Shown: positions 6,072 to 55,496, counted from the first letter of the stretch. The stretch: DNA of 64,000 bases from Oscillospiraceae bacterium (GCA_050950425.1 JBMNHO010000002.1:1360154-1424153), one strand, 5' to 3'. The notes: generated by a model not told the origin, from the letters alone. Numbers and translations: made by a program.

Positions 6072-6119
6072 ATGACTTCCGCCGCGTATTTCGCGCGGCT
6101 GGATGATTTGGAGGAATCC

Positions 6120-39484: not shown

Positions 39485-39577
39485 GTGCAGACTACCCGAT
39501 TGGGTGATTTTTATTACCCCATTTTTGCTATGCTGTTCTTAATGGGCAAAGTTTCGCCGGAAAAGGAGGGTCTTTCT

Positions 39578-40504
39578 ATGCATCACTATTGTTGGCACTG
39601 CGGCGCACAGCTAACACCCGGCAAAATGTTCTGCCGCAGCTGCGGAGCGCGGATACAGGCCGTCGCCCCGCCAAACACAGCCCCGCACAGCGCTCAGCCT
39701 GTCCCGTCCGGAGAGAGGTGGGGAAAGGCTGAACATCTGCAGCAGTTAGGGCTGGCCGCATACCTCAAGGCGGGTGTCGGTGCGGGGCTTGCGTCCTTCA
39801 GGCAGACGCTGAAAAACCCCAAACAGCTCATCCCCATGCTTGCGCTGGGCGCACTCTGGCTCGCGCTCTCCATCCTGCCCGCGCTGGGCATCAACCCCTT
39901 GCCGGTGCAGCTGCTCTCCTTTTTGACGTTTGCGCAGGGCGGCATGTACGGGGGCGTGTTGGGCGCAGTGGGCGGTGTGATGGGCAAGGCGGTGTTCGCC
40001 TACTTCGTAAGCGCCCTGCTGCTGCCGCTTTTTTCGGGCAAAAATCCGTTTCGCGGCATGGGCGGTGGTTTCAAGGCGTTTTTTTCAGGGCTGGCGGCGC
40101 AAAGCGCAAGCGCGGCCGCGTCGCTGCTGATGGGTCTTGGGTTGGCGCTGGTCTTATATAATTTCTTTACCGGCAACGCGGGCCTTGTCAGCAGCATGGC
40201 GGGCGTGTTCGGGTTCATACTGGCGCTCAAGTCGCTTTTGAGCAAAGGCGGGTTTGTTTGGGGGCTGCTGCTCACTGCGGCCAGCAAGTTCACCAAAGGC
40301 AGAACACCATCGCAAGAGGCCGCTAGGCACGCGGTGTCCGGCTACGCGGCAGGAAGCGCCGCAGGCATGGCGCTTTCCGTCTTATCTCGGCCCTATTTTC
40401 CTCTGACAGCGTATCTGCCTTACATGGCGGGCGCGGCCCTCCTCATCGCCGGGCTGAGCCTTGGCATTGCTGCAAAATCAAAAAAGAAGGTGGCGTCGGC
40501 ATGA
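39578..40504 (+). CDS. zinc-ribbon protein fused to a Gly/Ala/Leu-rich polytopic membrane domain
   Basis: N-terminal CWHCG-x10-CRSCG ribbon, then about 6 hydrophobic helices; AAGGAGGG upstream of ATG 39578. Confidence 0.6.
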   Translation: MHHYCWHCGAQLTPGKMFCRSCGARIQAVAPPNTAPHSAQPVPSGERWGKAEHLQQLGLAAYLKAGVGAGLASFRQTLKNPKQLIPMLALGALWLALSILPALGINPLPVQLLSFLTFAQGGMYGGVLGAVGGVMGKAVFAYFVSALLLPLFSGKNPFRGMGGGFKAFFSGLAAQSASAAASLLMGLGLALVLYNFFTGNAGLVSSMAGVFGFILALKSLLSKGGFVWGLLLTAASKFTKGRTPSQEAARHAVSGYAAGSAAGMALSVLSRPYFPLTAYLPYMAGAALLIAGLSLGIAAKSKKKVASA

Positions 40505-42300
40505 AAAAGAAGCTTTTGGCTTTCTTTGCGGTTCTTCTCCTGGTGCTGCCCGTCCTGTCGGTGACGGCGTCGGCCGAGCTGATGGATACGGAGACGGATC
40601 CCGCGCCGGTGGTATCGGGCGGCAGCTTCGAGGCCTCCTCCGGGACAAAGATGGAATTTAACGTTTCGGGCGGGACACTGACCGGAGCCAAATGGACGAC
40701 AAGGCCGCACCATGCGTCTTACAATCTGACCGGAACCTTCAAAGAGGGCGAAACCGTTTCGCTTTCGATTACCGGAACCGAGGCGCCGGGGCTTGCGGAG
40801 TCGACGACCAGCCATTTGGTGTGGAACGGTCTGAGCGGATACATCGACTATTACGCCGATGGCGGCTCAAGGATTGGCGAGACGCAGAGATACCAGTCGG
40901 AGTATGTAAAAAGTTCTCCCCTCTCCCACGCGTTCACAGCAACCATCCCGGCCGGCGCAAAAGAGATGGTTATCCAGGCCAATTTTGTTTGCCGCTGGTC
41001 AGTGGACTATTCCCTGGCGGTCGTGGAAGAATTTGTGGCCGTCAGTCTTAACCTGGAGGTGGAAAGGGAGGAATCCCCCGTGGTTATGCTGCCTGCGGAT
41101 CCGGAGCCTTCTAAAGGCCCCGGGCCGGACCCCTATTTCACACCGGATCAAATAACGCAGTGGGGGGAGGATTGTGACTGCGAAGGCCCCTGGACCCATG
41201 CCGGGCCGCTGGCTACCATCTTCATCGCCATTGTATCGGCGCTGGCCGCCATCTTTGGCGGAGGCATTGGCTCTGTTGCCGCGGCGGCGGGGGAAGCCGC
41301 CGGCGGTATGAGCGGCGGCTGGGATGCGGAATCCCCCCCCGAAAGAGATATGATCATCACCGACCCTGCGACGGGCGCGCAAACGCGTTTTGTACAGGAT
41401 CCGGCGACGGGGGAATGGGTTGACCCCGAAAGGGGAAGCATATTGGACCCGAGCCGGGTGCCGGGGTGGCAGCAGGAGCGCACATCCGAAAGGGAGTGGA
41501 TCGACCGCCAAAACGACTCGCTGCGAACGGGCGATAACGCCCTTGACAGGCATATAGCCGAAGACCGAGAGAGACAGGCCGCGGCTGAAGCGCTGAGTGA
41601 CGAGCTTCTGCGTATCGCCAAGCGGGCGCACGCGCAGCCGGCCAGTGAGCTAAACAACAACATAGCGAAAAATGCCCGCGAATTGGCCCACAAGCTGCTT
41701 TCGGGAAAGGAGCGGGATCTCGTTTCCGCCGACGACATCAACCGTGTAATGAAGGCTTTCTCCGGCTCGGCGACCGGCAGAATCATTGCGCACGGGCAGC
41801 TTCCCAAGGTACCGTCCGACATGTCCTTATACGGAAATGCCTTCTGGAATCAAATCGAGGAAATCTCGCGCAACGAAACGGCGTTCGCGGTGGTTTTTCG
41901 TACCGTGTTCGCCATCCCCACGGGCGGCGGATCCGAGCTCTTTTTTCAAACCCACAAGGGGTATCTGCGAATGCGTGATTACGTGGATGAGGGCGGCGAC
42001 AGCGTGATGGGCGGCGCGCTGACGGCTACGTGGGGAGCGGTAAAAGACTTTGCCGTGAGCAAAGCGTCCGACAAGCTCATGAAAGGCATAACACCGAAGG
42101 TGATGAAAAACAAGCCGATCGGCAAGGTCGACAAGTTTTTAAAAGACAGCTTTAAAGACCCCCGGAAATTGGATGTAGTCCATAAGATCATTTACAATCA
42201 GGTGAAACGTGCGCCAAGAGCAGCGATCAACAAAGGGGACGAATACACGCTCAATGTCGACGGAAATATACGGTCGGCTATCAAACGAATTTTTGATTGA
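40501..42300 (+). CDS. bitopic membrane protein: signal peptide, about 230-aa outer domain, one TM helix, about 330-aa cytoplasmic domain
   Basis: MKKKLLAFFAVLLLVLPVLSVTASA signal peptide; TM helix LATIFIAIVSALAAIFGGGIGSV; ATGA overlap with upstream gene. Confidence 0.65.
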   Translation: MKKKLLAFFAVLLLVLPVLSVTASAELMDTETDPAPVVSGGSFEASSGTKMEFNVSGGTLTGAKWTTRPHHASYNLTGTFKEGETVSLSITGTEAPGLAESTTSHLVWNGLSGYIDYYADGGSRIGETQRYQSEYVKSSPLSHAFTATIPAGAKEMVIQANFVCRWSVDYSLAVVEEFVAVSLNLEVEREESPVVMLPADPEPSKGPGPDPYFTPDQITQWGEDCDCEGPWTHAGPLATIFIAIVSALAAIFGGGIGSVAAAAGEAAGGMSGGWDAESPPERDMIITDPATGAQTRFVQDPATGEWVDPERGSILDPSRVPGWQQERTSEREWIDRQNDSLRTGDNALDRHIAEDRERQAAAEALSDELLRIAKRAHAQPASELNNNIAKNARELAHKLLSGKERDLVSADDINRVMKAFSGSATGRIIAHGQLPKVPSDMSLYGNAFWNQIEEISRNETAFAVVFRTVFAIPTGGGSELFFQTHKGYLRMRDYVDEGGDSVMGGALTATWGAVKDFAVSKASDKLMKGITPKVMKNKPIGKVDKFLKDSFKDPRKLDVVHKIIYNQVKRAPRAAINKGDEYTLNVDGNIRSAIKRIFD

Positions 42301-42317
42301 ATGGGAGGAAGTTGCCG

Positions 42318-43358
42318 ATGAACCCTGAAATCATGCATTTTACGGATGCACAGCTCAAGGCGTTGTCGCTGAAATATAAAATAAGACCCGGTCTGCTCTG
42401 TGCGCTGCCGCCCTTTTGCGCGGTGGAGCCGGCTTTGCCGCCCGTTTTGGACGAAGCACAGGAGGTGGCGCTCAACCTTGCGCTCAGGCCGTTGAACGTC
42501 ACAGACGCGGCCGTACTACTTGCAAACGACGGACTGATGTATATGCGGCTGAGCATGCGCGGCGAGCTCGGTGTATTGACAGGGCGCGAAGACGACGCCA
42601 ACGCGCTGCTGCCTTGTGAAGCGGGCGATTTCGCCACAACGGTGATGGCCCATCTGGCGCGGGGCGGTGAGCCGCTCAAGCGCGCGACGGCGCTTGACAT
42701 ATCGCCCAACGCCTTTTTGCTGCTGCTTGCCGCGGCCGACGCATATAAAATGCAATACCTTGAGGATCTGTTAAGCCATTCCGTGGCGGACGTGAAGCTG
42801 ACAACGGATGCGCTCGAACGCGCTGTGGGGGAGGCCTATGAAAACGCCGATCTCAGGTGGCTTTTGCCCTTCGCGCTGTTTCGGATGGAGCAGATACCCT
42901 GGCTGGACATTCAGTCGGCGCTTGATGAGCTTTCGGAGTTGGGCGTGCTTGAACCTGACAGCCTTACTTTTACGGGAGACGGCGAATTATTTGTGGACGA
43001 TTTGATGTTCCGTTCCGGAGTTGCGGACGTTTCCTCCGTTTATATGCAGGGGGAGGCGCTTGCCCGCTCGCATGTCCTGTTCATCCGCACCCTGAACACG
43101 CTTTGGGGCGTGCGGTTCGGCGACGGCGATGTCTCGATCCTCTCGCTGACCATAGACGAAGCGTGCGAGATGATGGCCGCCATGCTCACGCAGAAGGATG
43201 AACCAGGGGATAGGGAGGAGCCCGCAACGGAAACGGAACGGGAAGCGAAGGCGCAGCAAACAGTCGCGCGGCCAACCTCTAAGTTCTGTCACAACTGCGG
43301 CTCCAAACTCTCCGCCACCGCCGCGTTTTGCGGCAACTGCGGCACGAAATTGGGCTAA
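42318..43358 (+). CDS. soluble uncharacterised protein with C-terminal zinc ribbon
   Basis: C-terminal CHNCG-x10-CGNCG; GGGAGGAAG 7 nt upstream of ATG 42318; abuts stop of upstream gene. Confidence 0.6.
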   Translation: MNPEIMHFTDAQLKALSLKYKIRPGLLCALPPFCAVEPALPPVLDEAQEVALNLALRPLNVTDAAVLLANDGLMYMRLSMRGELGVLTGREDDANALLPCEAGDFATTVMAHLARGGEPLKRATALDISPNAFLLLLAAADAYKMQYLEDLLSHSVADVKLTTDALERAVGEAYENADLRWLLPFALFRMEQIPWLDIQSALDELSELGVLEPDSLTFTGDGELFVDDLMFRSGVADVSSVYMQGEALARSHVLFIRTLNTLWGVRFGDGDVSILSLTIDEACEMMAAMLTQKDEPGDREEPATETEREAKAQQTVARPTSKFCHNCGSKLSATAAFCGNCGTKLG

Positions 43359-43488
43359 TGCCCATATTTTTCAGATGTTGCGGGGCCCGGCCCCCGGCTG
43401 GCTCCGTAATGTTGGGGATGAGCGTCCTGCTGTTTGCGTGGAGTTTCGGCGGCTATTATCAAAGCAGTTGTAGAAAAGAGGGATGACG

Positions 43489-44058
43489 ATGGAAAAGATA
43501 CAGTGGCGGATCAGCGTGCCTATATTCAGAAACACGGTGATTTTGAAGCAGCTTGGGCTTGCCATCGGCATCCCCTTTGGTCTTGTCGCGCTGGTGATCG
43601 GGCTTGCATCGGGCAAGAGCGTCTACACGCTTTATGGGCTAGGGCTTATCGCCGCGCTGCTGCTTTTGTCATGGCTTTTTATCATGGTGATCCATCGGGG
43701 AAAGTATGAAGCCGAATTTCTGCTGGATCAAAAAGGCGTACTCTGCCGCACACAGGAAAAGCAGGCGAAAAAGAACCGAATCGTCAATGGTATGACGGTC
43801 GCATTCGGGGTTTTATCCGGCAAACCTGCCGCCGCGGGCGCGGGGATGCTGGCGCAGTCGCGGCAGGAGGTTTTTCTTCGGTGGGCCCACGTCGCAAAGG
43901 TGAAATACAGGCCGAAAAACCGCACCATCCTTTTACGAGGTGGTTTTTCAGAACAGATTGCGCTGTTCTGCACGGCAGAGAATTATCCGCAGATTGCGCA
44001 TGAAGTCGCGCTCCACACAACGCGCTTCAAAAAGGGGCGCCCAGAATCAGGAAGATGA
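43489..44058 (+). CDS. small membrane protein: two TM helices plus about 110-aa soluble domain (bacterial PH-like topology, inferred)
   Basis: Two hydrophobic helices (LGLAIGIPFGLVALVIGL, LGLIAALLLLSWLFIMVI) followed by a basic soluble domain. Confidence 0.5.
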   Translation: MEKIQWRISVPIFRNTVILKQLGLAIGIPFGLVALVIGLASGKSVYTLYGLGLIAALLLLSWLFIMVIHRGKYEAEFLLDQKGVLCRTQEKQAKKNRIVNGMTVAFGVLSGKPAAAGAGMLAQSRQEVFLRWAHVAKVKYRPKNRTILLRGGFSEQIALFCTAENYPQIAHEVALHTTRFKKGRPESGR

Positions 44059-44761: not shown

Positions 44762-45703
44762 TTAGAGGTCACCCTGTATTGAAAAGCCATCTATGATACC
44801 TGTAGGAGTAACGTCTACAGCTTCGAAATGATTGCTATTTCTTGCAACATGCAAACATGTAACTCCATTTTTGTTTAACAGGTCAGGAACAAGAGATATT
44901 GCGAAAATCAATGGCTTCGGGCCATCCGGTACTAAAATAACATCTCCAGTTGACAGCAGTTCATGAGACAAATCACAAAGCTTTGATACCATAAATGAAA
45001 AATCGTCCAGCTGCAATGCTACCGACATTGCTGCCTTAGAGAGGAAGCTCGCATTCACTTGCTTGATATTTTCTGCAAAGAATTCGCGTTTTGGATTGTA
45101 TGCATAGCATGCGACAAGGTAATCAGGATCTGTTATTGATATAATTGCCTGAGTTCTTATTGTGTCATACCCAAGAGCTAAGATGTGCACTCTGTTCTTT
45201 TCGATTTCCAAAGAGGGTCTCCCTGAGTAGAACGAAAATGCGTCTATGCCTGCACTGGGGTATTCTTCGTATGAATTTGGGTATTCTCCTTCAGAGTACC
45301 AGAAATAAACGATGTCGGTTTCTCTGAGCACACTTTGCAATAGCATTGGAAGTTTGCAGTACCATCCTCTCGGCATAGATGAATAGTCGATATGGACAGT
45401 CAACCTATCGCTACTAGTAGTCATTTTTTTTACTGTTTCAAGAATCTTTTTATGCACGGCTCGGCTGTCTGAATACTTTTGAATAATTATTTGCTGGTGA
45501 GATTCAATGGATTTTATTTTATCTTTTGAATGAGGATGGTTTTCATAGTCATCAAATGCAAATAGCATCATATTCGGCAAATGTTCAAACTCGGATACCT
45601 TATCCAGCAAATGAGAAGAACGCTGCTCATAGCCAATTGAAAAAACACAAAGACAGTTTCCTTGGAATAGTTCCTTATCAAATTCCGCATTCTTAATGAT
45701 CAT
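44762..45703 (-). CDS. uncharacterised 313-aa protein, last gene of cassette
   Basis: AAGGAGG 7 nt upstream; start overlaps ATPase stop (TAATG); AT-rich codon usage matches neighbours; no motif recognised. Confidence 0.7.
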   Translation of the reverse strand: MIIKNAEFDKELFQGNCLCVFSIGYEQRSSHLLDKVSEFEHLPNMMLFAFDDYENHPHSKDKIKSIESHQQIIIQKYSDSRAVHKKILETVKKMTTSSDRLTVHIDYSSMPRGWYCKLPMLLQSVLRETDIVYFWYSEGEYPNSYEEYPSAGIDAFSFYSGRPSLEIEKNRVHILALGYDTIRTQAIISITDPDYLVACYAYNPKREFFAENIKQVNASFLSKAAMSVALQLDDFSFMVSKLCDLSHELLSTGDVILVPDGPKPLIFAISLVPDLLNKNGVTCLHVARNSNHFEAVDVTPTGIIDGFSIQGDL

Positions 45704-47490
45704 TAGTCACCCTCCTTAAACAGCGATATTTGGTCAAACTCGGGCTGCTTAATGATGCTTTTAGGGTTTTTAACTGTATAAGTTTGAACTTGATTATCAA
45801 TTATCGATATTTTTTTCGGTGCAACATCAGGCCGCATTGGTAACCAGTATTTTGCAGCATATGCATTGGCAAGTAGGTATTCTGTTTCTTTTGAGATTCC
45901 ATTTTTGAGAGTATCCTCATCAACAATAATTCTTGAATAGGCAATAGCTAGCTCTAGCCATCCTTTCGCATTGACAAAAGAGTCATCCTCCCTGAATCCC
46001 AAGACAAAATTACATCCAGCCGATACTAAATACGAACCATGCACATGATTCTGCAAAGTTTCAGCGATTTTATCTAACTCCCGATAAATGAGCGGACCAT
46101 AAGTCTCGAGCGCTTGTGTGGATTCGCAAAAGCTCTGTACATATTCAAAAATAACGCCATGTTGAGCTTTTGGTGTCAACACAGATGTTCTTGCTTTTTC
46201 AAACAGTATATTCATTATCTGTATAAAAGCCCGTGGATTGCCCTGAGATATTTTTCGTATCATAGGGCTACCTGCATACCATCCCGGTTTTCTGTTTCCT
46301 TCTTTCGATAAAGCATACATTTGCCTTACAAAGAAAATAGGTGCAGATTTATCATAAACTGTTTTTCTTTTATTAGAATAGTTATTGGCATTTTTTCTCT
46401 CGGAGAAGCTATTAATGATTTTTTGCTCGATTACTTCGTATGTCGATTCTTCCGCACCGCATTCCTCACGATAATAATCTATTTGATCGTCATTTCCGCA
46501 AACTCCAACAAAATCCTCAAGAGTTTCAATGACTAAACTAGGATCAAACCGGCTCTTCATGCGATGGGAGCAAAGCATGTTTGTTAAGTTTCGAAAATCT
46601 TGACTTGCAAAATCCATGTCCACAACACGATAATTGAAGTCATTTCCAGAGGAAACCGAAATCTTTTCTTCCAACGTTTCTAAGGTTTTGTGATAATATG
46701 GTAGGGTTGCGACTTTCAATGCTATTCGATTAGAGTCCGATCGAAAAACATTATTGATGCACTTCTGCATGGGTTCGGTTAAAAATTCAGCCTCGTCTAT
46801 ACATATTATCCATGTTGGTTCTTCGGCAAAATCTAAGCCTTTGGATATTAATCCTTTGACAGCTAATAGCGACGCTCCGATTGGGCGCTTGAACACAGGT
46901 GGAACGTTATCCAAACAATTTGTTTTCACATCGAAGTTGTAAAAAAGTTTCTTGAGTTTCATCGAGAGAGAAAATAAATCCGAAATATCGTCAGCATCAT
47001 CATCGAACCACATATTGTTTAGATCATTGGTAAGAGTGAAATTTTTCGTTGCACGCTTTAGCTTGTCATACTCTTCGGCCAACATTTCTTCAAGCTCTGT
47101 TAATAGTGATTGAGCAAGTAGACAATTGAAAGCAAATTGGAACAGTGCTATTTGTTCTTGCTCCGTGGTATCCGTACTTGTTAAATGGGTTACAAATTCC
47201 AAGTACATCGGCACATATAATGCAAGATACTCTTTATTATCTAATAATTCTTTTGCGCGTGGATCTTGTACGCGCTTAAGCATTGAATAACGCATCATTT
47301 TTAATAAAAATGTTTTTCCACTACCACGTGTTCCCAGAAGGACTTCATGCTGATCGTTGAAAAGAGACCAATAGTTGGATATTGGGTAAAATTCATTTAT
47401 TACCTTTGTATCAGAAAAGTTTCGTGCCTGACTATCGCTAAAGGGATTTTGCATACTGGAGCCTTTAATACAATCAGCAACTCTATCCAT
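45703..47490 (-). CDS. P-loop NTPase (AAA/ORC-Cdc6-like), 595 aa
   Basis: Walker A GTRGSGKT (47311-47334), Walker B TWIICIDEAE (46786-46815); ATG 47490 has GGAGG 7 nt upstream and overlaps the end of the upstream gene by 8 nt. Confidence 0.8.
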   Translation of the reverse strand: MDRVADCIKGSSMQNPFSDSQARNFSDTKVINEFYPISNYWSLFNDQHEVLLGTRGSGKTFLLKMMRYSMLKRVQDPRAKELLDNKEYLALYVPMYLEFVTHLTSTDTTEQEQIALFQFAFNCLLAQSLLTELEEMLAEEYDKLKRATKNFTLTNDLNNMWFDDDADDISDLFSLSMKLKKLFYNFDVKTNCLDNVPPVFKRPIGASLLAVKGLISKGLDFAEEPTWIICIDEAEFLTEPMQKCINNVFRSDSNRIALKVATLPYYHKTLETLEEKISVSSGNDFNYRVVDMDFASQDFRNLTNMLCSHRMKSRFDPSLVIETLEDFVGVCGNDDQIDYYREECGAEESTYEVIEQKIINSFSERKNANNYSNKRKTVYDKSAPIFFVRQMYALSKEGNRKPGWYAGSPMIRKISQGNPRAFIQIMNILFEKARTSVLTPKAQHGVIFEYVQSFCESTQALETYGPLIYRELDKIAETLQNHVHGSYLVSAGCNFVLGFREDDSFVNAKGWLELAIAYSRIIVDEDTLKNGISKETEYLLANAYAAKYWLPMRPDVAPKKISIIDNQVQTYTVKNPKSIIKQPEFDQISLFKEGD

Positions 47491-48712
47491 GATTAGCCTC
47501 CTTCCTAATAAGTACAACATCATTTGGAAAGCTTCCGATCATCTTGTGTGTATTTGAAAGCTGTTCCGTTATCTGCTGATTAAGCTTGTCAACCGGAAGG
47601 AAACGAAGGCTTTCATCTAAACTTTCCCAAGTAACTTCATAAACCATCTCAGCTGGCTCTGATAAATCTTTTATTGCTTGAATTCTTTTGTCTGCATCAA
47701 AAATTTTCCCAAGCAACATTTTATGATCAATAGGCGTTTCCGGACAATTGCTTTTAATCGGAATCCATCCGAGTGCAGATGAAAACTGATAACTATAGAG
47801 TTCCAACACACCGACCTCATCAGAAAGATCAATAATATGTAGTGTATTGGGGATCTCACCATGCCTATGAGCTGCGTTGACCGCGAGGCTACCTGCACAA
47901 ATAAATGTTATTGGATAATTCCAACCATTTTTTTGGTCGGTTTCTGCTCTTGGATGATGACGATGACCGTGCAGTACTAAGCGAATACCATTTTGACCCG
48001 CAATTTCAAGAAACCTACTTCCTTCTTCAAGCGTTGATATATCCGGCCCTGGTATAGGGAAGCTATAATTAAAAGGGTGATGGTGCATCATTACGATTTT
48101 CCATCTTGAATCTGCACTATACTCTTTAGCGATAGACTCAAACCATTCCAGTTGTTTTGCATCAAGTTTTCCCCTAGGAAAAGATTGATCGCGGGTACTG
48201 TAACAACCTGTGTTTAGGACAAACATTACAAAGTCTTTATTTTCTATAATTCCGGTATACGGGGCAGGTCCAGTTTTATTTAGTGGAGGTATATTTTCTA
48301 TATTTATTAGCGCAGCCTGAGCAGCCATTTCCCGGTATTTTTCCCTTACTAAATCATGGGGAAAATCAGGGGGCATTTTCTCGAAGTTTGAATATAAGTC
48401 AGATATTTTCCAATCAATATCATGGTTTCCCAATCCAAGTATGACATTATCACGTGGAATTTCGGCTCTATCTGCTATATCCAGTAACGCTTTTTCGCAG
48501 TTAAAAAATTCTTGGGGACTTCCTAGAGAAGTTAAATCTCCAGCTATACAAAGATATTGCGTATTGGTTTTTTTGAGTACTGAAATCAGACTCTCGGTTA
48601 ACGATATCCCTCCAGCATTTTCATCTTTGATAGGCTCCCCTGGGACAGAAAGTTCTGCTGTCCTTGAGAATCGCCCAAAATGAATATCGCTAATCAACGC
48701 AATACGAACCAT
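47483..48712 (-). CDS. calcineurin-like metallophosphoesterase with about 130-aa C-terminal extension
   Basis: All five MPE motifs in order: ISDIHFG, IAGDLTSLG, LGNHDIDW, MMHHHP, VLHGHRHHP; GAGGAG upstream of ATG 48712. Confidence 0.85.
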   Translation of the reverse strand: MVRIALISDIHFGRFSRTAELSVPGEPIKDENAGGISLTESLISVLKKTNTQYLCIAGDLTSLGSPQEFFNCEKALLDIADRAEIPRDNVILGLGNHDIDWKISDLYSNFEKMPPDFPHDLVREKYREMAAQAALINIENIPPLNKTGPAPYTGIIENKDFVMFVLNTGCYSTRDQSFPRGKLDAKQLEWFESIAKEYSADSRWKIVMMHHHPFNYSFPIPGPDISTLEEGSRFLEIAGQNGIRLVLHGHRHHPRAETDQKNGWNYPITFICAGSLAVNAAHRHGEIPNTLHIIDLSDEVGVLELYSYQFSSALGWIPIKSNCPETPIDHKMLLGKIFDADKRIQAIKDLSEPAEMVYEVTWESLDESLRFLPVDKLNQQITEQLSNTHKMIGSFPNDVVLIRKEANHG

Positions 48713-48759
48713 GCCATTATCTCCTCAAAAAAGTAATCGTCATAATCTAATCCGTACAT

Positions 48760-49584
48760 TTATTGTTGATCTTCTAGCAATTGGATTGGATATGAGGATA
48801 CTAATAATTCTTCTTGTGAGCCACGTCCTTCAGCCAGTCCTGATATTGAACTAAATCTGCGCAATGCCTGAGTGTAGAAATTGTTTTGCTCGTACATTTG
48901 TTGTATATCAGGATAGTATGCATTAGTAGCCAACACTATCGCGCCTCGATCACGTGCCCGTGTTAATGCATTTAGCAGACGTTTTTGGTCTTTCCAAGAG
49001 AATAATCTCTCGTTATATTTAATAAAAGCGTTTTGGTTATGTGCTATGGTGTAGGGGGGATCAGCGAAAATGAGATCCCCCTGCATCGCTGCACGTATTG
49101 TATCAACAAAATCCTGCTTTCGTATGTGAACATTATGTAGCACCTCTGAATACGCTTCAAAACGTGCCACATCATCAACGAACTGTTGTTTTGTGCCAAT
49201 CGGTACGTTGAACTCTCCTAACCGATTGACGCGATACATACCGTTAAAGCATGTCCTGTTCAAATAGAGAAATCTGGCAGCCCGCTCAATAGCGTTATCA
49301 GGTACGTTCGCTCTGACTGCATAATAGTGATCTGCGCAATGATTTTCTTGGTGTTGGATCAATTGCTCCCTGAGTTGCGCTGGATTTCTTGCCATCACTT
49401 TATATACATTTATCAATTCACCATTTATATCGGAAATGGTGGCTTTCGCGGGAAGTAAAGAAAAGAAAGCAGAGCCGCCACCGAGAAACGGTTCAAAATA
49501 GTGGTTATATTCTGCTGGGAAGATGTAACGATAGTTTGCAATTAGCCATCGTTTCCCGCCCGGCCATTTTAGAAAAGGATGCAC
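48760..49584 (-). CDS. Dam-family (D12 class, alpha group) N6-adenine DNA methyltransferase
   Basis: FLKWPGGKRWL, SAM motif FEPFLGGGSAF, catalytic FADPPY (49051-49068); GTG start 4 nt after the upstream stop. Confidence 0.9.
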   Translation of the reverse strand: MHPFLKWPGGKRWLIANYRYIFPAEYNHYFEPFLGGGSAFFSLLPAKATISDINGELINVYKVMARNPAQLREQLIQHQENHCADHYYAVRANVPDNAIERAARFLYLNRTCFNGMYRVNRLGEFNVPIGTKQQFVDDVARFEAYSEVLHNVHIRKQDFVDTIRAAMQGDLIFADPPYTIAHNQNAFIKYNERLFSWKDQKRLLNALTRARDRGAIVLATNAYYPDIQQMYEQNNFYTQALRRFSSISGLAEGRGSQEELLVSSYPIQLLEDQQ

Positions 49585-49588
49585 GTGG

Positions 49589-49783
49589 TTAGTTCACATC
49601 CTCTCTACGGGATTTCACGCCTTTTCTTCTCGCATCTAAAGGCTTTTTTGCATCTTTTGGTATCGCCCATGATTTCCCCAGACGAGCGATTTTCTCGATA
49701 CGGCCTTGTTCACAAAGGACTTGCACTCTACGCTCTGATATGCCCCATTTTTCAGCGGCGTCTTTTGCAGTCATATATTCCAT
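49589..49783 (-). CDS. small helix-turn-helix DNA-binding protein (excisionase/MerR-like HTH), 64 aa
   Basis: MTAKDAAEKWGISERRVQVLCEQGRI HTH; ATG 49783 lies downstream of the predicted promoter, GAGG upstream. Confidence 0.7.
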   Translation of the reverse strand: MEYMTAKDAAEKWGISERRVQVLCEQGRIEKIARLGKSWAIPKDAKKPLDARRKGVKSRREDVN

Positions 49784-49824
49784 ATCATCAAACCTCGTAA
49801 CTGGATAATCAAGCACATATAGAC

Positions 49825-49917: not shown

Positions 49918-51441
49918 TTAAACAAAATCCGAAATCGCCCAATCTATTTCAATCCGATTATCAGGGTACACATAAACCCTGTTCACAAGCAGCTCCGCGA
50001 GAGTGCGTGTGAGCTTACCGGCTCCGGTGACATCCTTTGCGATGCCCCGGATTTTTTTGTTGCCCTCAGATGATAACTGCATCCGTTTCACCTCAGATTC
50101 CAGCCGCTTGAATATCTGCTCAATCTTCCGTAGGTCACTATCAACAACGGACTTTGCCGCCTTGTAATTGTCAAGGCTGATTTCCTCCATCAAATACTGC
50201 TCATACAAGCGGCGCTTATCATCTTTCAGGGCATTAACTTTTTCCTCATATACGGCCTTTTCTTCAAGGCGAATGTCCAGTTTGCTAACATCGCTCAGAC
50301 TGTCAGCACCGAGGATGATCCTTGCTTTTTGTTCCGAAAGCGTATAGATGAGGGCTTCCAAATCGCTCTCCAAAATCTCCTGCAAACGGCATTCCATGTG
50401 TTCGTAATGCCTTGAGTAATTACAGATAAAAGCCGGATTCTTCTTCAAGCGGGACATTGCGTGTTTACAGCAACCGCAAAACACCATGCCCCGCAGCGCG
50501 TATTCATGCCGATTTTTCTTAACGCTGCTGCCCTTCGGAAATATCGCCTGAACCTGTTCAAACACATCCATAGAAATAATCGCGGGATGAAAGTCGGGGA
50601 TTTTGAACCACTTGCTTTCATCATTGCGGCGAACGTGATTGCCGCCCACTTGGGTGACAGCAGTTTTGCCGTAGATGTACGTCCCGGCATAGCGCTCATC
50701 ACGAAGGAAACGCAGAACAATGGTGGGATGCCAGATATTATTTGAGCGTGATACATCATGGGTCTTATCACCGCGAGCCACCTTATATTCGCCGGGGGTG
50801 GGAATATTCAAGTCAAATAGCTGCTTGGCGATTTTGGGGGCGCTCATGCCCTCCAGCGCCAGATCAAAAATTGTTCTGACCACCGGCGCAGTCTGCTCAT
50901 CAATAACAAAGTGTTTATCTTCGCCGGGGAGATAGCCGTAAGGAGTGCGCTTGTCATGGTATTCACCGCGCCGCATGAGGGCGTACTTAGCGCTTTTATA
51001 TTTGCGGGAAAGGTCATGGCTGTATTGCTCATGGATGAGATAGCGGAACGCAACATCCATGCCGCCGGTGTCGTTTTTATACTTATTGGTGTCGAAGTTA
51101 TCATTGATGGAGATAAAACGCACCTTAAACAGCGGAAATACTTGCTCAATGAAATAGCCGGATTCAAGGCTGTTGCGCCCGAAGCGCGAAAAGTCTTTGA
51201 CGATGATACAGTTAATCTGGAGGGTGCGAACCTTTTCGAGCATTTCCTGCATCGCTGGGCGCTCAAAATTCGTGCCTGTATAACCGTTGTCAACAAACTC
51301 AAGCACCTCGGCGCTGTCACCCTCCGGCATGGAATCCACATATTTATGGAGGGCAAGCTGCTGATTGCGGATGCTCATGCTATCTACCTTCGCATCCTCC
51401 AGTGACAAACGGATATAGAGCGCGATAACATATTTGCTCAC
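49918..51441 (-). CDS. large serine recombinase (1 of 3)
   Basis: Resolvase N-domain ALYIRLSLED (catalytic Ser), VKDFSRFGRN; recombinase domain, Cys zinc ribbon, coiled coil. Confidence 0.9.
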   Translation of the reverse strand: MSKYVIALYIRLSLEDAKVDSMSIRNQQLALHKYVDSMPEGDSAEVLEFVDNGYTGTNFERPAMQEMLEKVRTLQINCIIVKDFSRFGRNSLESGYFIEQVFPLFKVRFISINDNFDTNKYKNDTGGMDVAFRYLIHEQYSHDLSRKYKSAKYALMRRGEYHDKRTPYGYLPGEDKHFVIDEQTAPVVRTIFDLALEGMSAPKIAKQLFDLNIPTPGEYKVARGDKTHDVSRSNNIWHPTIVLRFLRDERYAGTYIYGKTAVTQVGGNHVRRNDESKWFKIPDFHPAIISMDVFEQVQAIFPKGSSVKKNRHEYALRGMVFCGCCKHAMSRLKKNPAFICNYSRHYEHMECRLQEILESDLEALIYTLSEQKARIILGADSLSDVSKLDIRLEEKAVYEEKVNALKDDKRRLYEQYLMEEISLDNYKAAKSVVDSDLRKIEQIFKRLESEVKRMQLSSEGNKKIRGIAKDVTGAGKLTRTLAELLVNRVYVYPDNRIEIDWAISDFV

Positions 51442-53075
51442 GATAATACCCCCTCACTCAGCCCGGATACTGAAAAACGGCAAGTGATAGAAACGCGCCT
51501 GTCCTCAAAAAGCTCTATGCGCTCTATGAGACGGTCAATCAACTCGGCGGTCAGTTGCGGATTGCGCTCAAGCTCCTGCGCATCCAATATGATTTTCTTT
51601 GCCTGAACCTCTTGTGCCTTTAGGTCGGAAAGCTCCTGCTCAAGCGCTGCTATACGGTGCTCTGCCGCCGCCGATTTTGTTTCATAATCACTTTTCATAG
51701 AGAAATACTCATCCTGTGTAATCGTACCGCTCACAAGGTTTTCGTACAGGCTGCGGACGATATAAAGGCTTTTATCCTTATCCTGCCGGAGAGCGGCAAT
51801 TTCTTTTGTGATGTTCGATTTTTCCTCGCTCTGGGCAGAGGTGTCTTTGCGAATTCGTATTGCATCATCCAGCGCGAGGTTAAGCTGGCGGCTCAAATAG
51901 GACAGTACAACCTCGGTCAATTCCTTTTCAGGGATGGATACCACCCTGCAAGCGCCTTTTCCCATGCGGCTTTGGGTGATGCAATGAAGATAATAGACAT
52001 GAGAGTGGACACGATTATGCCGCTGGCGGTGAAGCGGTCTGCCGCAATACCCACAGAAGATTTTACCCTTCCAAATGTTCGGGGTATATTCTGCTTTGGC
52101 CCTGTTGCTGCTATCCTTTGCAACTTGCTCTCGCAGGCGTTGAACAACATCATACATTTCATGGGTGATAATCGGCTCATGGGTATTGCGAACGACGATC
52201 CACTCCTCGTGCGAAACAGGGATTTGCTTGCGGTCAATAGATTTGGTCTTGCCTTGCACCATATCCCCGGTATAAACTTCATCCTCCAAGAGCTTAGAGA
52301 CGGTGCGGGTCTGCCATTTCCCCTCGCCAAGCAGATTTTCATGGGATATAAGCCCCTTCTGTTTCTTGTAATGGCTGGGCGGTAGGATATTACCCTCATT
52401 GAGCTTTTTTACGATGGTATTCAGACCATCACCGCCATGCGCCCACTCAAATATCTGCGCTACAACCGGAGCGGTCTCTGGGTCGATAATGAGCTTATGA
52501 CAATCATCGGGATGCTTCATATATCCGTAGGGCGAGCGTGCGCCGATAAAACCGCCCTCGCTCATACACTGGTGCTGCTGTGCCTTGATTTTGCGGCTGA
52601 TGTCCTTTGAATAGGCTTCATTTATCATGTTTTTCAGAGGGAGCATGATGCCGCTGTGGATGCTCTCGGTGTCGGCGCTGTCATAACAATCATTGACTGC
52701 TATGAAGCGAACATTGTATTTAGGGAAGTAGCGTTCAATATAATAGCCAGTGTCAATCACGTTGCGCCCAAGGCGGGAAAGGTCTTTGACCAGAACGCAG
52801 TCAATCAGGCCGTTTGCGATATCGCCCAGCATGGTCTGAAAACCCTCGCGCTGAAAGGTAGTGCCGGAAACGCCGTTATCGGTATAAACGCCGACAATTT
52901 GGAAATCCGGCTTATCCTCAAGATATTGCTCCAAAATCATGCGCTGGGTTTCAAGGGAGTTTCCCCGGTTGTTATTGTCCTCCACCGACAGCCTGATATA
53001 AAATGCACTACGGATATAGAGCGCTGCGGCAACCTTTGGGGCATCCGCAAGATATTTTCTACTTTTTCTGGCCAT
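51438..53075 (-). CDS. large serine recombinase (2 of 3)
   Basis: FYIRLSVEDN, VKDLSRLGRN, recombinase and zinc-ribbon domains; 4-nt overlap with downstream recombinase. Confidence 0.9.
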   Translation of the reverse strand: MARKSRKYLADAPKVAAALYIRSAFYIRLSVEDNNNRGNSLETQRMILEQYLEDKPDFQIVGVYTDNGVSGTTFQREGFQTMLGDIANGLIDCVLVKDLSRLGRNVIDTGYYIERYFPKYNVRFIAVNDCYDSADTESIHSGIMLPLKNMINEAYSKDISRKIKAQQHQCMSEGGFIGARSPYGYMKHPDDCHKLIIDPETAPVVAQIFEWAHGGDGLNTIVKKLNEGNILPPSHYKKQKGLISHENLLGEGKWQTRTVSKLLEDEVYTGDMVQGKTKSIDRKQIPVSHEEWIVVRNTHEPIITHEMYDVVQRLREQVAKDSSNRAKAEYTPNIWKGKIFCGYCGRPLHRQRHNRVHSHVYYLHCITQSRMGKGACRVVSIPEKELTEVVLSYLSRQLNLALDDAIRIRKDTSAQSEEKSNITKEIAALRQDKDKSLYIVRSLYENLVSGTITQDEYFSMKSDYETKSAAAEHRIAALEQELSDLKAQEVQAKKIILDAQELERNPQLTAELIDRLIERIELFEDRRVSITCRFSVSGLSEGVLS

Positions 53076-54733
53076 TATCCTGCCCTCCTTTGTTCTGTAC
53101 GCTCCGCTTGCAGAACCGCAAGTGCCGTTTCATACTCAAGCTGAAAGTTGAAGTCAATCTCAATCTGCGTTTTGCTGACAATGCGGATATTGCTTACAAG
53201 CTGTACGAGTGCCATGCGGTCAAGGGATTGCATGGTCTCATATTTGCGGAAATGAGCAATCCACTTGCGGCGATTGGAGGTGTTATTCAGCACGCTTTCA
53301 AGCTCGGCTTCCAGCGTCGCGTTCGCTTGCTCAAGGGTGGAAATCTCATCCGCATACATCTTTTTATTATGCTGGTAATCATCCTTGCTCAAAACACCGC
53401 AGATAAGATTTTCATAGAGCCGAGCTTTAAAGTTTTTCAAAGTATTCATCTTCTCGTTGTTGTCAGCAAGCTGGCGCTGGTACTTCTCAACCAGCTTACG
53501 GTTGATGCGTTCCTCGTTTATGCTGGCAAGCAGCTCATCAAGGGCAACGACATTATCAATATGTGCTTTTACGATGGCCAGCGCCAAATCATTCAGGTCA
53601 TCCTCTTTAATCTGCGGAGTGGTGCAGCCGTTTTTCTTTCCGGTAGGGCAGGCATAATAGAAATACTTTTTATCCTTATAGGGAACGGTTTTCCGTACCA
53701 TGCGTTCCCCGCAGCAACGGCAGACCAATAAGCCGGAGAAAAGATGCACCGATTTCCCATCCGGCGCTGTTCGCGTATCCAGGTGGCGGATACGCTGAAC
53801 AAGGTCAAAATCATGCTTGCGGATAATCAGCTCATGGGCATCTTCAATCCGCACCCATTCATCGTCGGGAAGGAAAGCCTTGTCTTTGAGCTTATAGTTG
53901 GAAGTGCATTGCCGCCCTTGAACCAATGTGCCAGTGTAGGTCTCATCCTGCAAAATACGGGTGATGGTGTTGGGAGACCATTTAGCGTTTTCACTGTCGG
54001 CAAAGCCGCCGCTTGGACAGGGTAAACCCTGCTGCCTTTTATACATAAGGGGCGAGAGGATGCCCCGCCCATTGAGGATTTCAGCAATGCGGTAGGCGCT
54101 CATGCCCTCCAATCTCATGTGGTAGATATCGCGCACAACCTCAGAGGCATACTCGTCGATGACAAGCTGATTCTTGTTTTCCTCAGATTTCAGATAGCCA
54201 TATACGGCGGTTGCGCCTACAAAATCGCCGTTGCGCCGCTTAACGGCAAGTGCGCTGCGGGTTTTGATGGAGATATCGCGGCAATAGGCTTCGTTTATGA
54301 TATTTTTTACCGATACAGTTAGCTCCTCGCCGTTATTATCGGCGACAGTGTCGATACCATCGGTAATGGCAATGAAACGGACACCGTAGGCGGGGAATAC
54401 CCGGCGCAGATAGCGGCCGGTCTCAATATACTCGCGCCCAAGCCGGGAGAGGTCTTTGACGATAACGCAGTTAATCTTGCCATCCTCAATATCTCGCATC
54501 ATCTGTTGAAAATCCGGTCTGTCGAACGCAAGCCCCGAATAACCGTCATCTATATACTCGGCTTCAAGGGAGATTTCAGGATGGTGGCTGAGATAATCAT
54601 TGATGAGCTTCTTCTGATTCGCCACGCTGCCACTCTCGGTGGACTTATCATCCGTATAAGATATGCGGATGTATTTAGCTGCCCGGTATTTCGGCAACGT
54701 AATTGCTTGTGCTTGTTTTGGTATTTTAGTCAT
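53075..54733 (-). CDS. large serine recombinase (3 of 3)
   Basis: AKYIRISYTDD...SVANQ, VKDLSRLGRE, CRCCGERM zinc ribbon; ATG 54733 has AAGGAG upstream (track start 54826); 1-nt overlap downstream. Confidence 0.9.
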   Translation of the reverse strand: MTKIPKQAQAITLPKYRAAKYIRISYTDDKSTESGSVANQKKLINDYLSHHPEISLEAEYIDDGYSGLAFDRPDFQQMMRDIEDGKINCVIVKDLSRLGREYIETGRYLRRVFPAYGVRFIAITDGIDTVADNNGEELTVSVKNIINEAYCRDISIKTRSALAVKRRNGDFVGATAVYGYLKSEENKNQLVIDEYASEVVRDIYHMRLEGMSAYRIAEILNGRGILSPLMYKRQQGLPCPSGGFADSENAKWSPNTITRILQDETYTGTLVQGRQCTSNYKLKDKAFLPDDEWVRIEDAHELIIRKHDFDLVQRIRHLDTRTAPDGKSVHLFSGLLVCRCCGERMVRKTVPYKDKKYFYYACPTGKKNGCTTPQIKEDDLNDLALAIVKAHIDNVVALDELLASINEERINRKLVEKYQRQLADNNEKMNTLKNFKARLYENLICGVLSKDDYQHNKKMYADEISTLEQANATLEAELESVLNNTSNRRKWIAHFRKYETMQSLDRMALVQLVSNIRIVSKTQIEIDFNFQLEYETALAVLQAERTEQRRAG

Positions 54734-54859
54734 GAAAAAACACACTCCTTTAGATGATTTACGCAGAAAACCGCAAATCAAGGGAGCGTGTTGGTCGCTA
54801 TTATTTTCATCCTTTTCCATGACCATAGTACCATGTTTTGCGGATGGCAGTCAATCTTG

Positions 54860-55108
54860 TCAAGCGATAATTCCTTTCAGACAATCTTCAAGAGAAGAAC
54901 CGCTTTGGGAAAAGTTTGCCTTGACGATGTACTTCCCGCAGCGAAAGCAATAGGGATTGCCGATCTGCCGCAGAAACTCAGCAATTCGAGCATCGCGGGG
55001 CAAGGTTTTATCAACCTTTATATTGCGAATGTCGGTCAGCTCTCCCGGCTCGACACTTTGAATGTCTACCGCCTGCAACTGAGCCAAGCTATGTGTGCCA
55101 GCGTTCAT
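54860..55108 (-). CDS. small conserved hypothetical protein (82 aa) upstream of recombinases
   Basis: MNAGTHSLAQLQAVDIQ...NPYCFRCGKYIVKANF; part of the longer 207-aa track ORF, the rest of which overlaps the next gene. Confidence 0.55.
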   Translation of the reverse strand: MNAGTHSLAQLQAVDIQSVEPGELTDIRNIKVDKTLPRDARIAEFLRQIGNPYCFRCGKYIVKANFSQSGSSLEDCLKGIIA

Positions 55109-55121
55109 ATTCGTTCCCTCC

Positions 55122-55496
55122 TTATGGGTTTTGAAAGCTCTCAGGATAGAGCAGCTTAATGGCTTCAAAGAAATACAGTGCTTTCCCATCGCAGAACAGC
55201 TCATATGGGGTGTAGTATCCGGCCAATTCTCCGCCAGATTCACCATTCCAGCCGTTGTAGAGATTGAATGCCAATCGGGTGATACGCAAAGTTCCGGATG
55301 TCTGCCAGCACTTATACAGCCCCTCAGTTTCAATGCCCTTCTCAGCAAAGTCATAGAGGTCGGCAATATTGCGTCGGGTATCATCGGACAGTCCCAGCGT
55401 ATAAAACAGGGCGAGGTGGTATGGATCATTCTGTGAGTGGGTGCGCTCCATAATCTTGCGGAAAAAGTCATTGTGCGCTTCATCTAAGAAAATCAT
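55122..55496 (-). CDS. conserved hypothetical protein (about 124 aa)
   Basis: MIFLDEAHNDFFRKIMERT...; AGGGGA 8 nt upstream of ATG 55496. Confidence 0.55.
   Translation of the reverse strand: MIFLDEAHNDFFRKIMERTHSQNDPYHLALFYTLGLSDDTRRNIADLYDFAEKGIETEGLYKCWQTSGTLRITRLAFNLYNGWNGESGGELAGYYTPYELFCDGKALYFFEAIKLLYPESFQNP

What the first reader, a model, noticed from the sequence alone, without database searches (positions are those of the whole stretch)
45703..48712. Translationally coupled phosphoesterase-ATPase pair resembles the BREX/Pgl component logic with different folds
**Seen.** The metallophosphoesterase stop (TAG 47485-47483) lies inside the ATPase start region (ATG 47490-47488). The ATPase Shine-Dalgarno sequence (GGAGG) is encoded in the last phosphoesterase codons. 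This suggests 1:1 co-translation and a physical complex.

**Established knowledge.**
- BREX and Pgl combine an adenine MTase (PglX), a large P-loop ATPase (BrxC/PglY) and a phosphatase-superfamily protein (PglZ, alkaline-phosphatase fold).
- Mre11/SbcD-type phosphoesterases work with SMC-like ATPases (Rad50/SbcC).

**Inference.** Here the same three activities appear in about 4 kb, but with a Dam-type MTase, a calcineurin-fold esterase and a non-SMC ATPase that has no long coiled coil. This could be an independent, minimal solution to the same task. Alternatively it could be an ATP-gated nuclease kept in check by methylation.
Basis: partly seen in the sequence, partly recalled or inferred. Interest (0 to 1): 0.6.

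Follow-up and report, generated by a model that had tools for sequence, protein, structure and literature searches.

The report
Methylase-phosphoesterase-ATPase-CARF candidate phage-defence cassette
The overlapping phosphoesterase and ATPase genes are real, and they form the core of a four-gene cassette (DNA adenine methylase, nucleotide-type phosphoesterase, ORC/Cdc6-like ATPase, double-CARF sensor) found in many bacterial phyla; it is probably an untested anti-phage system that destroys nucleotides rather than a BREX look-alike or a repair nuclease.

Summary
On the minus strand the phosphoesterase stop (TAG 47485-47483) overlaps the ATPase start (ATG 47490-47488), with AGGAGG 6 nt upstream. 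The same tight junction occurs in all 27 related loci examined, from at least six phyla.

The 313-aa protein (44762-45703) starts on the last base of the ATPase stop and is a tandem CARF-like sensor (PADLOC CARF6 model, E 3e-115; AlphaFold pLDDT 92.7; Foldseek hits to Cam1, Csa3, Csm6 and Can2).

- **ATPase:** Pfam ORC-CDC6-like (PF24389, E 5e-110). This is the same AAA+ clade that a 2026 survey assigns to BrxC, so it is not a different fold.
- **Phosphoesterase:** closest to Calcineurin-CE nucleotide-degrading effectors (DS-9/PUA-Cal) and to cyclic-nucleotide phosphodiesterases, not to SbcD/Mre11.
- **Sister cassettes:** they keep the ATPase and CARF6 but put a PRTase-CE enzyme in the phosphoesterase slot.
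- **Methylase:** a Dam-family gene accompanies the trio in 22 of 27 loci. It is missing in two truncated contigs and in three enterobacterial loci, and those three genomes carry chromosomal Dam.

Best reading: a horizontally acquired defence cassette of a computationally catalogued but untested class. The scan has noted sister cassettes on other DNA. The trigger is unknown; a methylome-derived nucleotide is an attractive possibility.

The parts
48760..49584 (-). Dam-family (D12 class) N6-adenine DNA methyltransferase, 274 aa
   Evidence: PF02086 E 1e-45; TIGR00571 'dam' 225 bits against a cut-off of 115; PADLOC MTase_II E 8e-85. A D12 MTase lies within 7 kb of the trio in 22 of 27 related loci, at variable positions.
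47483..48712 (-). Metallophosphoesterase, 409 aa; Calcineurin-CE-like predicted effector with all metal-binding motifs intact (D9/H11, D59, N96-H97, H210-212, H248/H250/H252)
   Evidence: PF00149 E 2e-16. Best NCBIfam match is DS9_1 anti-phage phosphoesterase, E 7e-22 over model positions 197-480 (homologues reach 1.5e-30). Profile against PDB: Lmo2642 9e-13, Rv0805 4e-7, SbcD 2e-4, Mre11 about 0.01-0.02. Invariant residues.
47483..47502 (-). Coupling junction: AGGAGG (47502-47497), ATG (47490-47488) and TAG (47485-47483), with an 8-nt overlap
45703..47490 (-). ORC/Cdc6-like AAA+ ATPase, 595 aa; Walker A GTRGSGKT (53-60), Walker B IICIDEAE (228-235); helical insert at about residues 110-185; alpha/beta C-terminal region compatible with a winged helix
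   Evidence: PF24389 E 5e-110 over residues 15-553. AlphaFold pLDDT 81.4. Foldseek gives only weak AAA+ hits (RFC, Cdc6 1fnn, ORC; E above 0.2). Invariant residues.
44762..45703 (-). Tandem CARF-like (CARF6) predicted nucleotide sensor, 313 aa; the start ATG shares base 45703 with the ATPase stop
   Evidence: PADLOC PDLC01921 'CARF6' E 2.8e-115. AlphaFold pLDDT 92.7 and pTM 0.92, two alpha/beta domains. Foldseek probability 0.96-1.0 to Cam1 8t64/8t66, Csa3 6wxq, Csm6 5fsh/8jbb and Can2 8bao. Invariant D106-x-S108-x3-R112. Homologue P0234 weakly matches HFX_2341_N and Csa3_N at residues 172-272.
49589..49816 (-). Small HTH_17 protein just upstream of the MTase; excisionase-like or regulator; membership in the cassette uncertain
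   Evidence: PF12728 E 1.9e-8.

Best explanation
The region 44762-49584 is a horizontally acquired four-gene conflict (most likely anti-phage) cassette. It rides as cargo next to three serine recombinase genes.

Shown:
- The three genes phosphoesterase -> ORC/Cdc6-like AAA+ ATPase -> tandem-CARF protein are translationally coupled and keep this order in at least six phyla.
- A Dam-family methylase is linked wherever the contig is complete, except in Enterobacterales, and those three genomes carry chromosomal Dam.
- In sister cassettes the ATPase-CARF6 pair is kept while the upstream enzyme is replaced by PRTase-CE.

Inferred mechanism:
- The phosphoesterase is the effector. It is a Calcineurin-CE-type enzyme that hydrolyses free nucleotides (dNDP/dNTP, NAD+ or similar) and so stops phage replication or the cell.
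- The ATPase is the STAND-like switch or scaffold that keeps the effector off and oligomerises when triggered.
- The tandem CARF protein is the ligand sensor.
- The methylase writes m6A (probably at GATC) on the host chromosome, and the system depends on that mark.

My preferred trigger, less certain, is a methylated adenine nucleotide released when a phage degrades host DNA. It would be read by the CARF pocket, by analogy with PUA-Cal-HAD. The alternative is that the ATPase reads unmethylated foreign DNA.
For: - Conserved order and coupling in 27 loci.
- Family assignments: PF24389, CARF6 and PF00149. CARF fold from the AlphaFold model and Foldseek.
- The phosphoesterase aligns over the whole Calcineurin-CE domain of the DS9_1 model. 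Its nearest solved relatives are cyclic-nucleotide phosphodiesterases, not SbcD/Mre11.
- DS-9/PUA-Cal-HAD and DS-8 (metallophosphatase fused to a NACHT NTPase) are experimentally validated defences. Calcineurin-CE there degrades dNDP and NAD+, and activation needs Dam-derived m6-dAMP (PMC13092281; bioRxiv 10.64898/2026.01.15.699771).
- Effector swap: L063 reads N6_N4 MTase - PRTase-CE - ORC-CDC6-like - CARF6, and L065 reads PRTase-CE - ORC-CDC6-like - CARF6.
- Fusion evidence for ATPase-CARF6 contact: the PADLOC model 'CARF6--CARF_STK_AAA' matches both proteins.
- Neighbours in other genomes include DndB, McrBC, type III R-M, toxin-antitoxin pairs and integrases.
- Sporadic distribution: PF24389 is over its cut-off in 9 of 401 genomes of the phylum (this genome included), and in none of those searched from the same family or order. 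The cassette is 36-41% GC against 46-50% in the recombinase genes and 50-63% at 41.0-44.4 kb.
- The three MTase-less enterobacterial genomes each encode an equivalog-level Dam elsewhere.
- No Cas10 (Csm1 or Cmr2) was found in this 98%-complete genome, and no cyclase lies in the cassette.
Against: - No experiment exists for this cassette or for any ORC-CDC6-like/CARF6 system that I could find.
- The phosphoesterase scores far below the DS9_1 and DS8 equivalog cut-offs and lacks both the PUA domain and a HAD partner, so its substrate is only extrapolated.
- SbcD-like similarity, though weak, is not zero (TIGR00619 4e-6 in one homologue), so a nuclease activity is not excluded.
- The CARF ligand is unknown. 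A SMODS cyclase elsewhere in the genome could supply a cyclic nucleotide.
- In some loci the MTase sits next to a DndB-like gene and may partner with it instead.
- The MTase target site was not determined.
- The complex was not modelled.
Confidence: 0.55

Rival explanations
1. Restriction-like model: the ORC/Cdc6-like ATPase, through its C-terminal winged-helix-like region, loads on DNA and reads methylation. Unmethylated foreign DNA switches on the phosphoesterase, as a nucleotide depleter or a nuclease, while the cassette methylase protects self. The CARF protein only tunes the response.
For: The methylase is linked in 22 of 27 loci with interchangeable positions and, in sister cassettes, classes. 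ORC/Cdc6-clade ATPases bind DNA and are proposed DNA sensors in related systems (bioRxiv 10.64898/2026.10.19.760177). BrxC is of the same clade. Host Dam could protect self in the MTase-less enterobacterial loci.
Against: Effectors in this slot (Calcineurin-CE-like, PRTase-CE) do not look DNA-directed. The model gives no role to a strictly conserved CARF sensor. The winged helix is only suggested by secondary structure.
Confidence: 0.25
2. One reading: an ATP-gated Mre11/SbcD-like nuclease held in check by methylation, that is, an unusual R-M system.
For: The metallophosphoesterase fold is shared with SbcD/Mre11. There are weak N-terminal matches (SbcD 7dog 2e-4; TIGR00619 4e-6 and PdeM 5e-6 in L033; PADLOC 'Effector Endonuclease' 2e-9).
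Against: The nuclease matches cover only the N-terminal part of the metal-binding domain. Full-domain best matches are DS9_1 and cyclic-nucleotide phosphodiesterases. The ATPase is not SMC, Rad50 or ABC. The homologous slot is filled by PRTase-CE in sister cassettes.
Confidence: 0.1
3. A minimal, independently evolved BREX/Pgl analogue (methylase + ATPase + phosphatase) that blocks phage DNA replication without nucleotide depletion.
For: The same three activity classes are present. The ATPase clade is shared with BrxC/BrxD.
Against: No PglZ, PglX, BrxC, BrxA, BrxB or BrxL profile matches. The survey of BREX-related systems (PMC12839542) has no occurrence of 'calcineurin' or 'metallophosphoesterase' and no calcineurin-fold member in the passages read. 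The obligatory CARF partner has no BREX counterpart.
Confidence: 0.05
4. The CARF protein senses a cyclic oligonucleotide made by an unlinked cyclase (CBASS or type III CRISPR), so the cassette is a stand-alone ancillary effector module. The methylase would be an unrelated neighbour.
For: The fold is CARF. Solved relatives bind cA4 or cA6. One SMODS-domain gene lies on another contig.
Against: No Cas10 was found. No cyclase lies in any of the examined loci next to the trio. The methylase linkage is too consistent to be incidental.
Confidence: 0.05

Closest known systems
Effector + ORC-CDC6-like ATPase (Pfam PF24389) + CARF6 cassettes, usually with a DNA methylase (computationally catalogued, untested). 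The effector families Calcineurin-CE, HD-CE and PRTase-CE were named by Nicastro et al., NAR 2023 (gkad879, not readable here). The CARF6 profiles are, from memory, those of the Makarova et al. 2020 CARF census, as carried in PADLOC-DB.
   Same: The ATPase is over the PF24389 cut-off. The 313-aa protein matches CARF6 profiles end to end. Gene order is the same, and a methylase is linked. The PRTase-CE version was verified here in L063 and L065.
   Different: Here the effector slot holds a metallophosphoesterase and the methylase is Dam/D12 class. I could not read the source papers, so I cannot say whether this exact four-gene version is described there.
PUA-Calcineurin-CE-HAD (DS-9) and DS-8 (metallophosphatase-NACHT), both validated E. 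coli defence systems
   Same: A homologous Calcineurin-CE-type catalytic domain with all metal ligands. The logic is a sensor plus an NTPase or oligomeric switch plus a nucleotide-degrading effector. DS-9 depends on Dam methylation of host DNA.
   Different: There is no PUA domain and no HAD partner. The NTPase is a separate ORC/Cdc6-like protein, not a fused NACHT. The sensor is a tandem CARF. Scores are far below the NCBIfam equivalog cut-offs (78 against 420 bits; 25 against 790 bits).
BREX / Pgl
   Same: A methylase plus an ORC/Cdc6-clade AAA+ ATPase plus a phosphoesterase-type enzyme.
   Different: The folds of the esterase (calcineurin against alkaline phosphatase PglZ) and of the methylase (D12 against PglX) differ. 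The ATPase is 595 aa without BrxC's C-terminal domains. There is no BrxA, BrxB or BrxL. A CARF partner is present.
SbcCD / Mre11-Rad50
   Same: A metallophosphoesterase gene translationally coupled to an ATPase gene.
   Different: The ATPase is AAA+, not an ABC/SMC protein with a coiled coil. The esterase resembles SbcD only weakly, in the N-terminal part of the metal-binding domain. The context is a mobile island, not a housekeeping locus.
Type III CRISPR CARF ancillary effectors (Csm6, Can2, Cam1, Csa3)
   Same: CARF fold and signature motif. A sensor coupled to a cell-arresting effector.
   Different: There are no cas genes or Cas10. Two CARF-like domains sit in one chain with no fused effector. 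The protein is coupled to an AAA+ ATPase.

Membership tests
ORC-CDC6-like ATPase / CARF6 / effector cassette class | ATPase belongs to Pfam PF24389 | tested here: met
   369 bits against a cut-off of 27, covering 1-564 of 571 model positions.
ORC-CDC6-like ATPase / CARF6 / effector cassette class | A CARF6-type protein is encoded immediately downstream of the ATPase | tested here: met
   PDLC01921 E 2.8e-115. The fold is confirmed. It is adjacent and overlapping in every one of the 26 loci whose contig extends past the ATPase gene.
ORC-CDC6-like ATPase / CARF6 / effector cassette class | A variable enzymatic effector is encoded immediately upstream of the ATPase | tested here: met
   A metallophosphoesterase here, and PRTase-CE in L063 and L065.
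ORC-CDC6-like ATPase / CARF6 / effector cassette class | A DNA methyltransferase is linked | tested here: met
   22 of 27 loci. The exceptions are two truncated contigs and three loci in Dam-positive Enterobacterales.
Calcineurin-CE effector family | Specific sequence relationship to characterised Calcineurin-CE domains, with intact metal ligands | tested here: inconclusive
   The best NCBIfam hit is DS9_1 over the whole catalytic domain (7e-22; 1.5e-30 in homologues), and the ligands are invariant. No dedicated Calcineurin-CE profile was available, and the score is below the equivalog cut-off.
PUA-Cal-HAD (DS-9) | N-terminal PUA-like sensor domain and a HAD phosphatase partner | tested here: not met
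   The catalytic domain starts at residue 3. No gene of the cassette (44762-49816) matches a HAD family.
BREX / Pgl | PglZ alkaline-phosphatase-fold protein, PglX-type methylase and BrxC/PglY ATPase | tested here: not met
   No Brx or Pgl profile in PADLOC matches any cassette protein at E 0.01 or better. The esterase is PF00149 and the methylase is PF02086.
SbcCD / Mre11-Rad50 | ABC/SMC ATPase with a long coiled coil and zinc hook | tested here: not met
   Pfam gives only PF24389. The model has no long coiled coil. Fold hits are AAA+ proteins.
Type III CRISPR CARF ancillary module | Cas10 cyclase in the genome or locus | tested here: not met
   No Csm1 or Cmr2 match in the 98%-complete genome.
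Anti-phage defence system (functional class) | Protects against phage when expressed | not testable with these tools
   Only context is available: defence-island neighbours and a mobile element.

The most novel reading that the evidence does not exclude
The cassette is a self-contained 'methylome alarm'. Its own Dam-type methylase barcodes the host chromosome. When a phage nuclease degrades host DNA, methylated adenine (deoxy)nucleotides are released and bind the asymmetric pocket of the tandem CARF protein. This drives the ORC/Cdc6-like ATPase to assemble and unleash the phosphoesterase on dNTP or NAD+ pools. It would make CARF a reader of a non-cyclic, methylome-derived ligand in a system with no signal synthase. 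It would also explain why methylases travel with non-nuclease effectors across this whole cassette class.
Probability: 0.2. Interest if true: 0.8.

Novelty: new member of a known kind. Interest (0 to 1): 0.45.

Why it matters
No member of the ORC-CDC6-like/CARF6 cassette class has been tested, as far as the searchable literature shows. These cassettes pair a DNA methylase with effectors that do not cut DNA, which classical restriction-modification logic does not explain. The 2026 finding that a related Calcineurin-CE effector is triggered by Dam-derived m6-dAMP gives a concrete hypothesis. The MTase-less trios in Dam-positive Enterobacterales make that hypothesis directly testable in E. coli dam+ and dam- strains. 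A positive result would add a new CARF ligand class and a second route by which the host methylome serves as a danger signal.

Tried and rejected
- Sequence searches of PDB with the single proteins found nothing useful. Profile searches helped only for the phosphoesterase.
- Foldseek of the ATPase model gave no hit better than E 0.26, so no finer placement than AAA+ ORC/Cdc6/clamp-loader-like was possible.
- Literature searches for CARF6, CARF + Cdc6 + metallophosphoesterase, and CARF + metallophosphatase found nothing relevant.
- Two papers could not be read: Makarova 2020 (PMC7498327) and Nicastro 2023 (PMC10681802).
- The enterobacterial trio has no DNA match in complete E. coli genomes. 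The ATPase has no tblastn match in the plasmid or phage collections.
- My subfamily HMMs did not detect the divergent sister cassettes; Pfam and PADLOC did.
- hhalign of the two halves of the CARF protein gave only E 0.021. An internal duplication therefore rests on the structure model, not on sequence.
- The promoter/terminator scan was uninformative, at shuffle level.
- The BREX-analogue and SbcCD readings were considered and rejected, as set out under the membership tests.


Full report
**Observation.** On the minus strand the sequence reads GGAAGGAGGCTAATCATGGATAG.
- The 409-aa phosphoesterase ORF (47483-48712) ends with TAG at 47485-47483.
- The ATPase ATG lies at 47490-47488, with AGGAGG 6 nt upstream, inside the phosphoesterase coding sequence.
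- The mechanical ORF list gives a longer 606-aa frame from 47523, and a public gene call starts 12 codons later (P0001). An alignment of 48 homologues begins at the 47490 column and is followed by an invariant NPF-D-Q-R motif, so 47490 is the supported start.

**Identity of the proteins.**
- The ATPase matches Pfam PF24389 'ORC-CDC6-like' almost end to end (E 5e-110). It has intact Walker A (GTRGSGKT) and Walker B (IICIDEAE) motifs.
- Its AlphaFold model (pLDDT 81) has a helical insert but no SMC-type coiled coil. Foldseek returns only weak AAA+ hits (RFC, Cdc6, ORC, RuvB-like; best E 0.26).
- The phosphoesterase is PF00149 with every metal ligand invariant.
- Its best curated match is the NCBIfam model for DS-9A, across the whole catalytic domain (7e-22; 1.5e-30 and 4e-30 in homologues). 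Weaker matches are DS-8, CpdA/SpdA cyclic-nucleotide phosphodiesterases and, in one homologue, SbcD.
- A profile of 27 orthologues finds Lmo2642 (9e-13) and Rv0805 (4e-7) in PDB. SbcD (2e-4) and Mre11 (about 0.01-0.02) match only in the N-terminal part of the domain.
- The 313-aa protein has no Pfam or NCBIfam hit, but it matches PADLOC's 'CARF6' model at E 2.8e-115.
- Its AlphaFold model is confident (pLDDT 92.7, pTM 0.92) and shows two alpha/beta domains. Foldseek gives probability 0.96-1.0 matches to the CARF domains of Cam1, Csa3, Csm6 and Can2, and to tandem Rossmann-like proteins.
- The invariant D106-x-S108-x3-R112 fits the CARF signature as I remember it (from memory, not checked against a source). 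One homologue weakly hits Csa3_N and HFX_2341_N in its C-terminal half.
- The upstream gene (48760-49584) is a Dam-family D12 methylase.

**Conservation.**
- A scan of species-representative genomes returned 27 distinct loci. They come from Clostridia, an Acholeplasmataceae MAG, Bacteroidota, Desulfobacterota, Nitrospinia, Fibrobacterota and Enterobacterales.
- In every one the order phosphoesterase -> ATPase -> CARF6 is kept; L029 stops inside the ATPase gene, so CARF6 cannot be seen there.
- Junction distances are -35 to +15 nt for the first junction. For the second they are -20 to +7 nt in all but one of the 26 loci that hold it; L028 gives +49 from an uncertain start call.
- A D12 methylase lies within 7 kb in 22 loci. 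Its position varies: upstream, downstream, on the opposite strand, or separated by a DndB-like or HerA-like gene.
- The five exceptions are two truncated contigs and three enterobacterial loci. The nearest neighbours checked at those three loci are an integrase, a primase-helicase, a SymE toxin, an IS transposase and a DUF3800 protein, not a methylase. Each of the three genomes encodes an equivalog-level Dam elsewhere (506-544 bits against a cut-off of 441).
- Neighbours in other loci include DndB, McrBC, a type III R-M system and ParE/Phd.
- PF24389 is over its cut-off in 9 of 401 genomes sampled from the phylum (this genome included), and in none of the same family or order.
- The cassette is 36-41% GC, against 46-50% in the adjacent recombinase genes and 50-63% at 41.0-44.4 kb.
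- The CARF6 profile finds 800 cluster representatives at 50% identity among 1.84 billion (97 at E 1e-30 or better), so the family is small but real.

**Modularity.**
- I checked other PF24389 loci in the same phylum. L063 reads N6_N4 methylase - PRTase-CE (PF24390) - ORC-CDC6-like - CARF6 - ThyX. L065 reads PRTase-CE - ORC-CDC6-like - CARF6. L064 reads ORC-CDC6-like - CARF6 - PfkB.
- The ATPase-CARF6 pair is therefore the constant core. The upstream enzyme is a swappable effector, and the methylase class also varies.
- PADLOC holds a fused 'CARF6--CARF_STK_AAA' model that weakly matches both the CARF protein and the ATPase of orthologous loci. This is Rosetta-stone support for contact between the ATPase and CARF6.
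- Earlier notes of this scan describe PRTase, TIR, kinase and ParA versions of the same class on other genomes. I treated these as leads and verified only the PRTase version.

**Literature.**
- DefensePredictor validated DS-8 (metallophosphatase fused to NACHT) and DS-9 (metallophosphatase plus HAD) as anti-phage systems that need the phosphatase active site (PMC13092281).
- A 2026 preprint shows that the same two-gene architecture, PUA-Calcineurin-CE-HAD, senses Dam-derived m6-dAMP released by phage-induced chromosome degradation. It then depletes dNTPs, with Calcineurin-CE converting dNDP to dNMP and also cleaving NAD+ in vitro. Defence against phage Bas38 is abolished, and against T2 markedly reduced, in dam- cells.
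- That preprint credits Nicastro et al. 2023 with defining Calcineurin-CE as a nucleotide-targeting 'conflict effector'. I could not read that paper or the 2020 CARF census.
- The 2026 BREX survey classes BrxC and BrxD as ORC-Cdc6 AAA+ ATPases. It has no occurrence of 'calcineurin' or 'metallophosphoesterase', and the passages read describe no calcineurin-fold member.

**Interpretation.**
- The pair is neither a housekeeping SbcCD-like nuclease nor a BREX variant. It is the effector and switch of a four-gene cassette of a catalogued but untested class.
- Shown: coupling, conservation, family assignments, effector swapping, methylase linkage and its replacement in trans by host Dam.
- Inferred: the phosphoesterase attacks nucleotides, the ATPase gates it, CARF6 senses a ligand, and the system needs m6A.
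- Two triggers remain open. One is a methylated nucleotide read by CARF6 (preferred, because no cyclase is present). The other is unmethylated DNA read by the ATPase. A dam+ versus dam- experiment with the enterobacterial trio separates them.
- The claim of a 1:1 physical complex was not tested.

**Verdict.** This is a new member of a known, predicted kind, with moderate interest.

Noticed in passing
window 49918-54826 (-): Three tandem, overlapping large serine recombinase genes (507, 545 and 583 aa; Resolvase + Recombinase + Zn_ribbon_recom each), followed by a DUF6870 protein at 54860-55483. The defence cassette appears to be cargo at one end of this element.
   Followed up: partly
window 49589-49816 (-): The small protein upstream of the methylase is HTH_17 (PF12728, E 2e-8). 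That family, as I remember it, includes excisionase-like proteins, so it may serve the recombinases rather than act as an R-M controller.
   Followed up: partly
L066 (G390:C1:2406000-2419500), ORFs 5348-6973 and 3538-5256 (-): A weakly ORC-CDC6-like ATPase is followed by a 572-aa alkaline-phosphatase-superfamily 'Phosphodiest' protein (PF01663, E 3e-43). This ATPase + phosphodiesterase pair is built with the PglZ-type fold class instead of the calcineurin fold.
   Followed up: no
own genome G000:C2:362334-363111 (-): A second D12-class methylase match is split over two frames (254-aa and 122-aa ORFs). It may be a frameshifted or decayed Dam-like gene.
   Followed up: no
own genome G000:C1:64143-64610 (+): A SMODS (CD-NTase-like) domain lies in a 517-aa ORF on another contig. 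This may be a CBASS-type cyclase, unlinked to the cassette.
   Followed up: no
L001 1349-2413; L019 3395-5767; L018 9753-12026: DndB-like (PF14072) genes sit next to the Dam-type methylase in several orthologous loci. In those genomes the methylase may be shared with, or belong to, a second DndB-type module.
   Followed up: no
window 45703-47523 (-): Start-codon ambiguity. The longest ORF starts at 47523, homologues support 47490, and a public gene call (P0001, 583 aa) starts at codon 13, which would remove the overlap with the phosphoesterase gene.
   Followed up: yes
window 39485-44058 (+): A high-GC block (50-63% over 41.0-44.4 kb, the part measured) of zinc-ribbon and membrane proteins with no family assignment lies directly next to the low-GC cassette. 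The window is compositionally mosaic.
   Followed up: no
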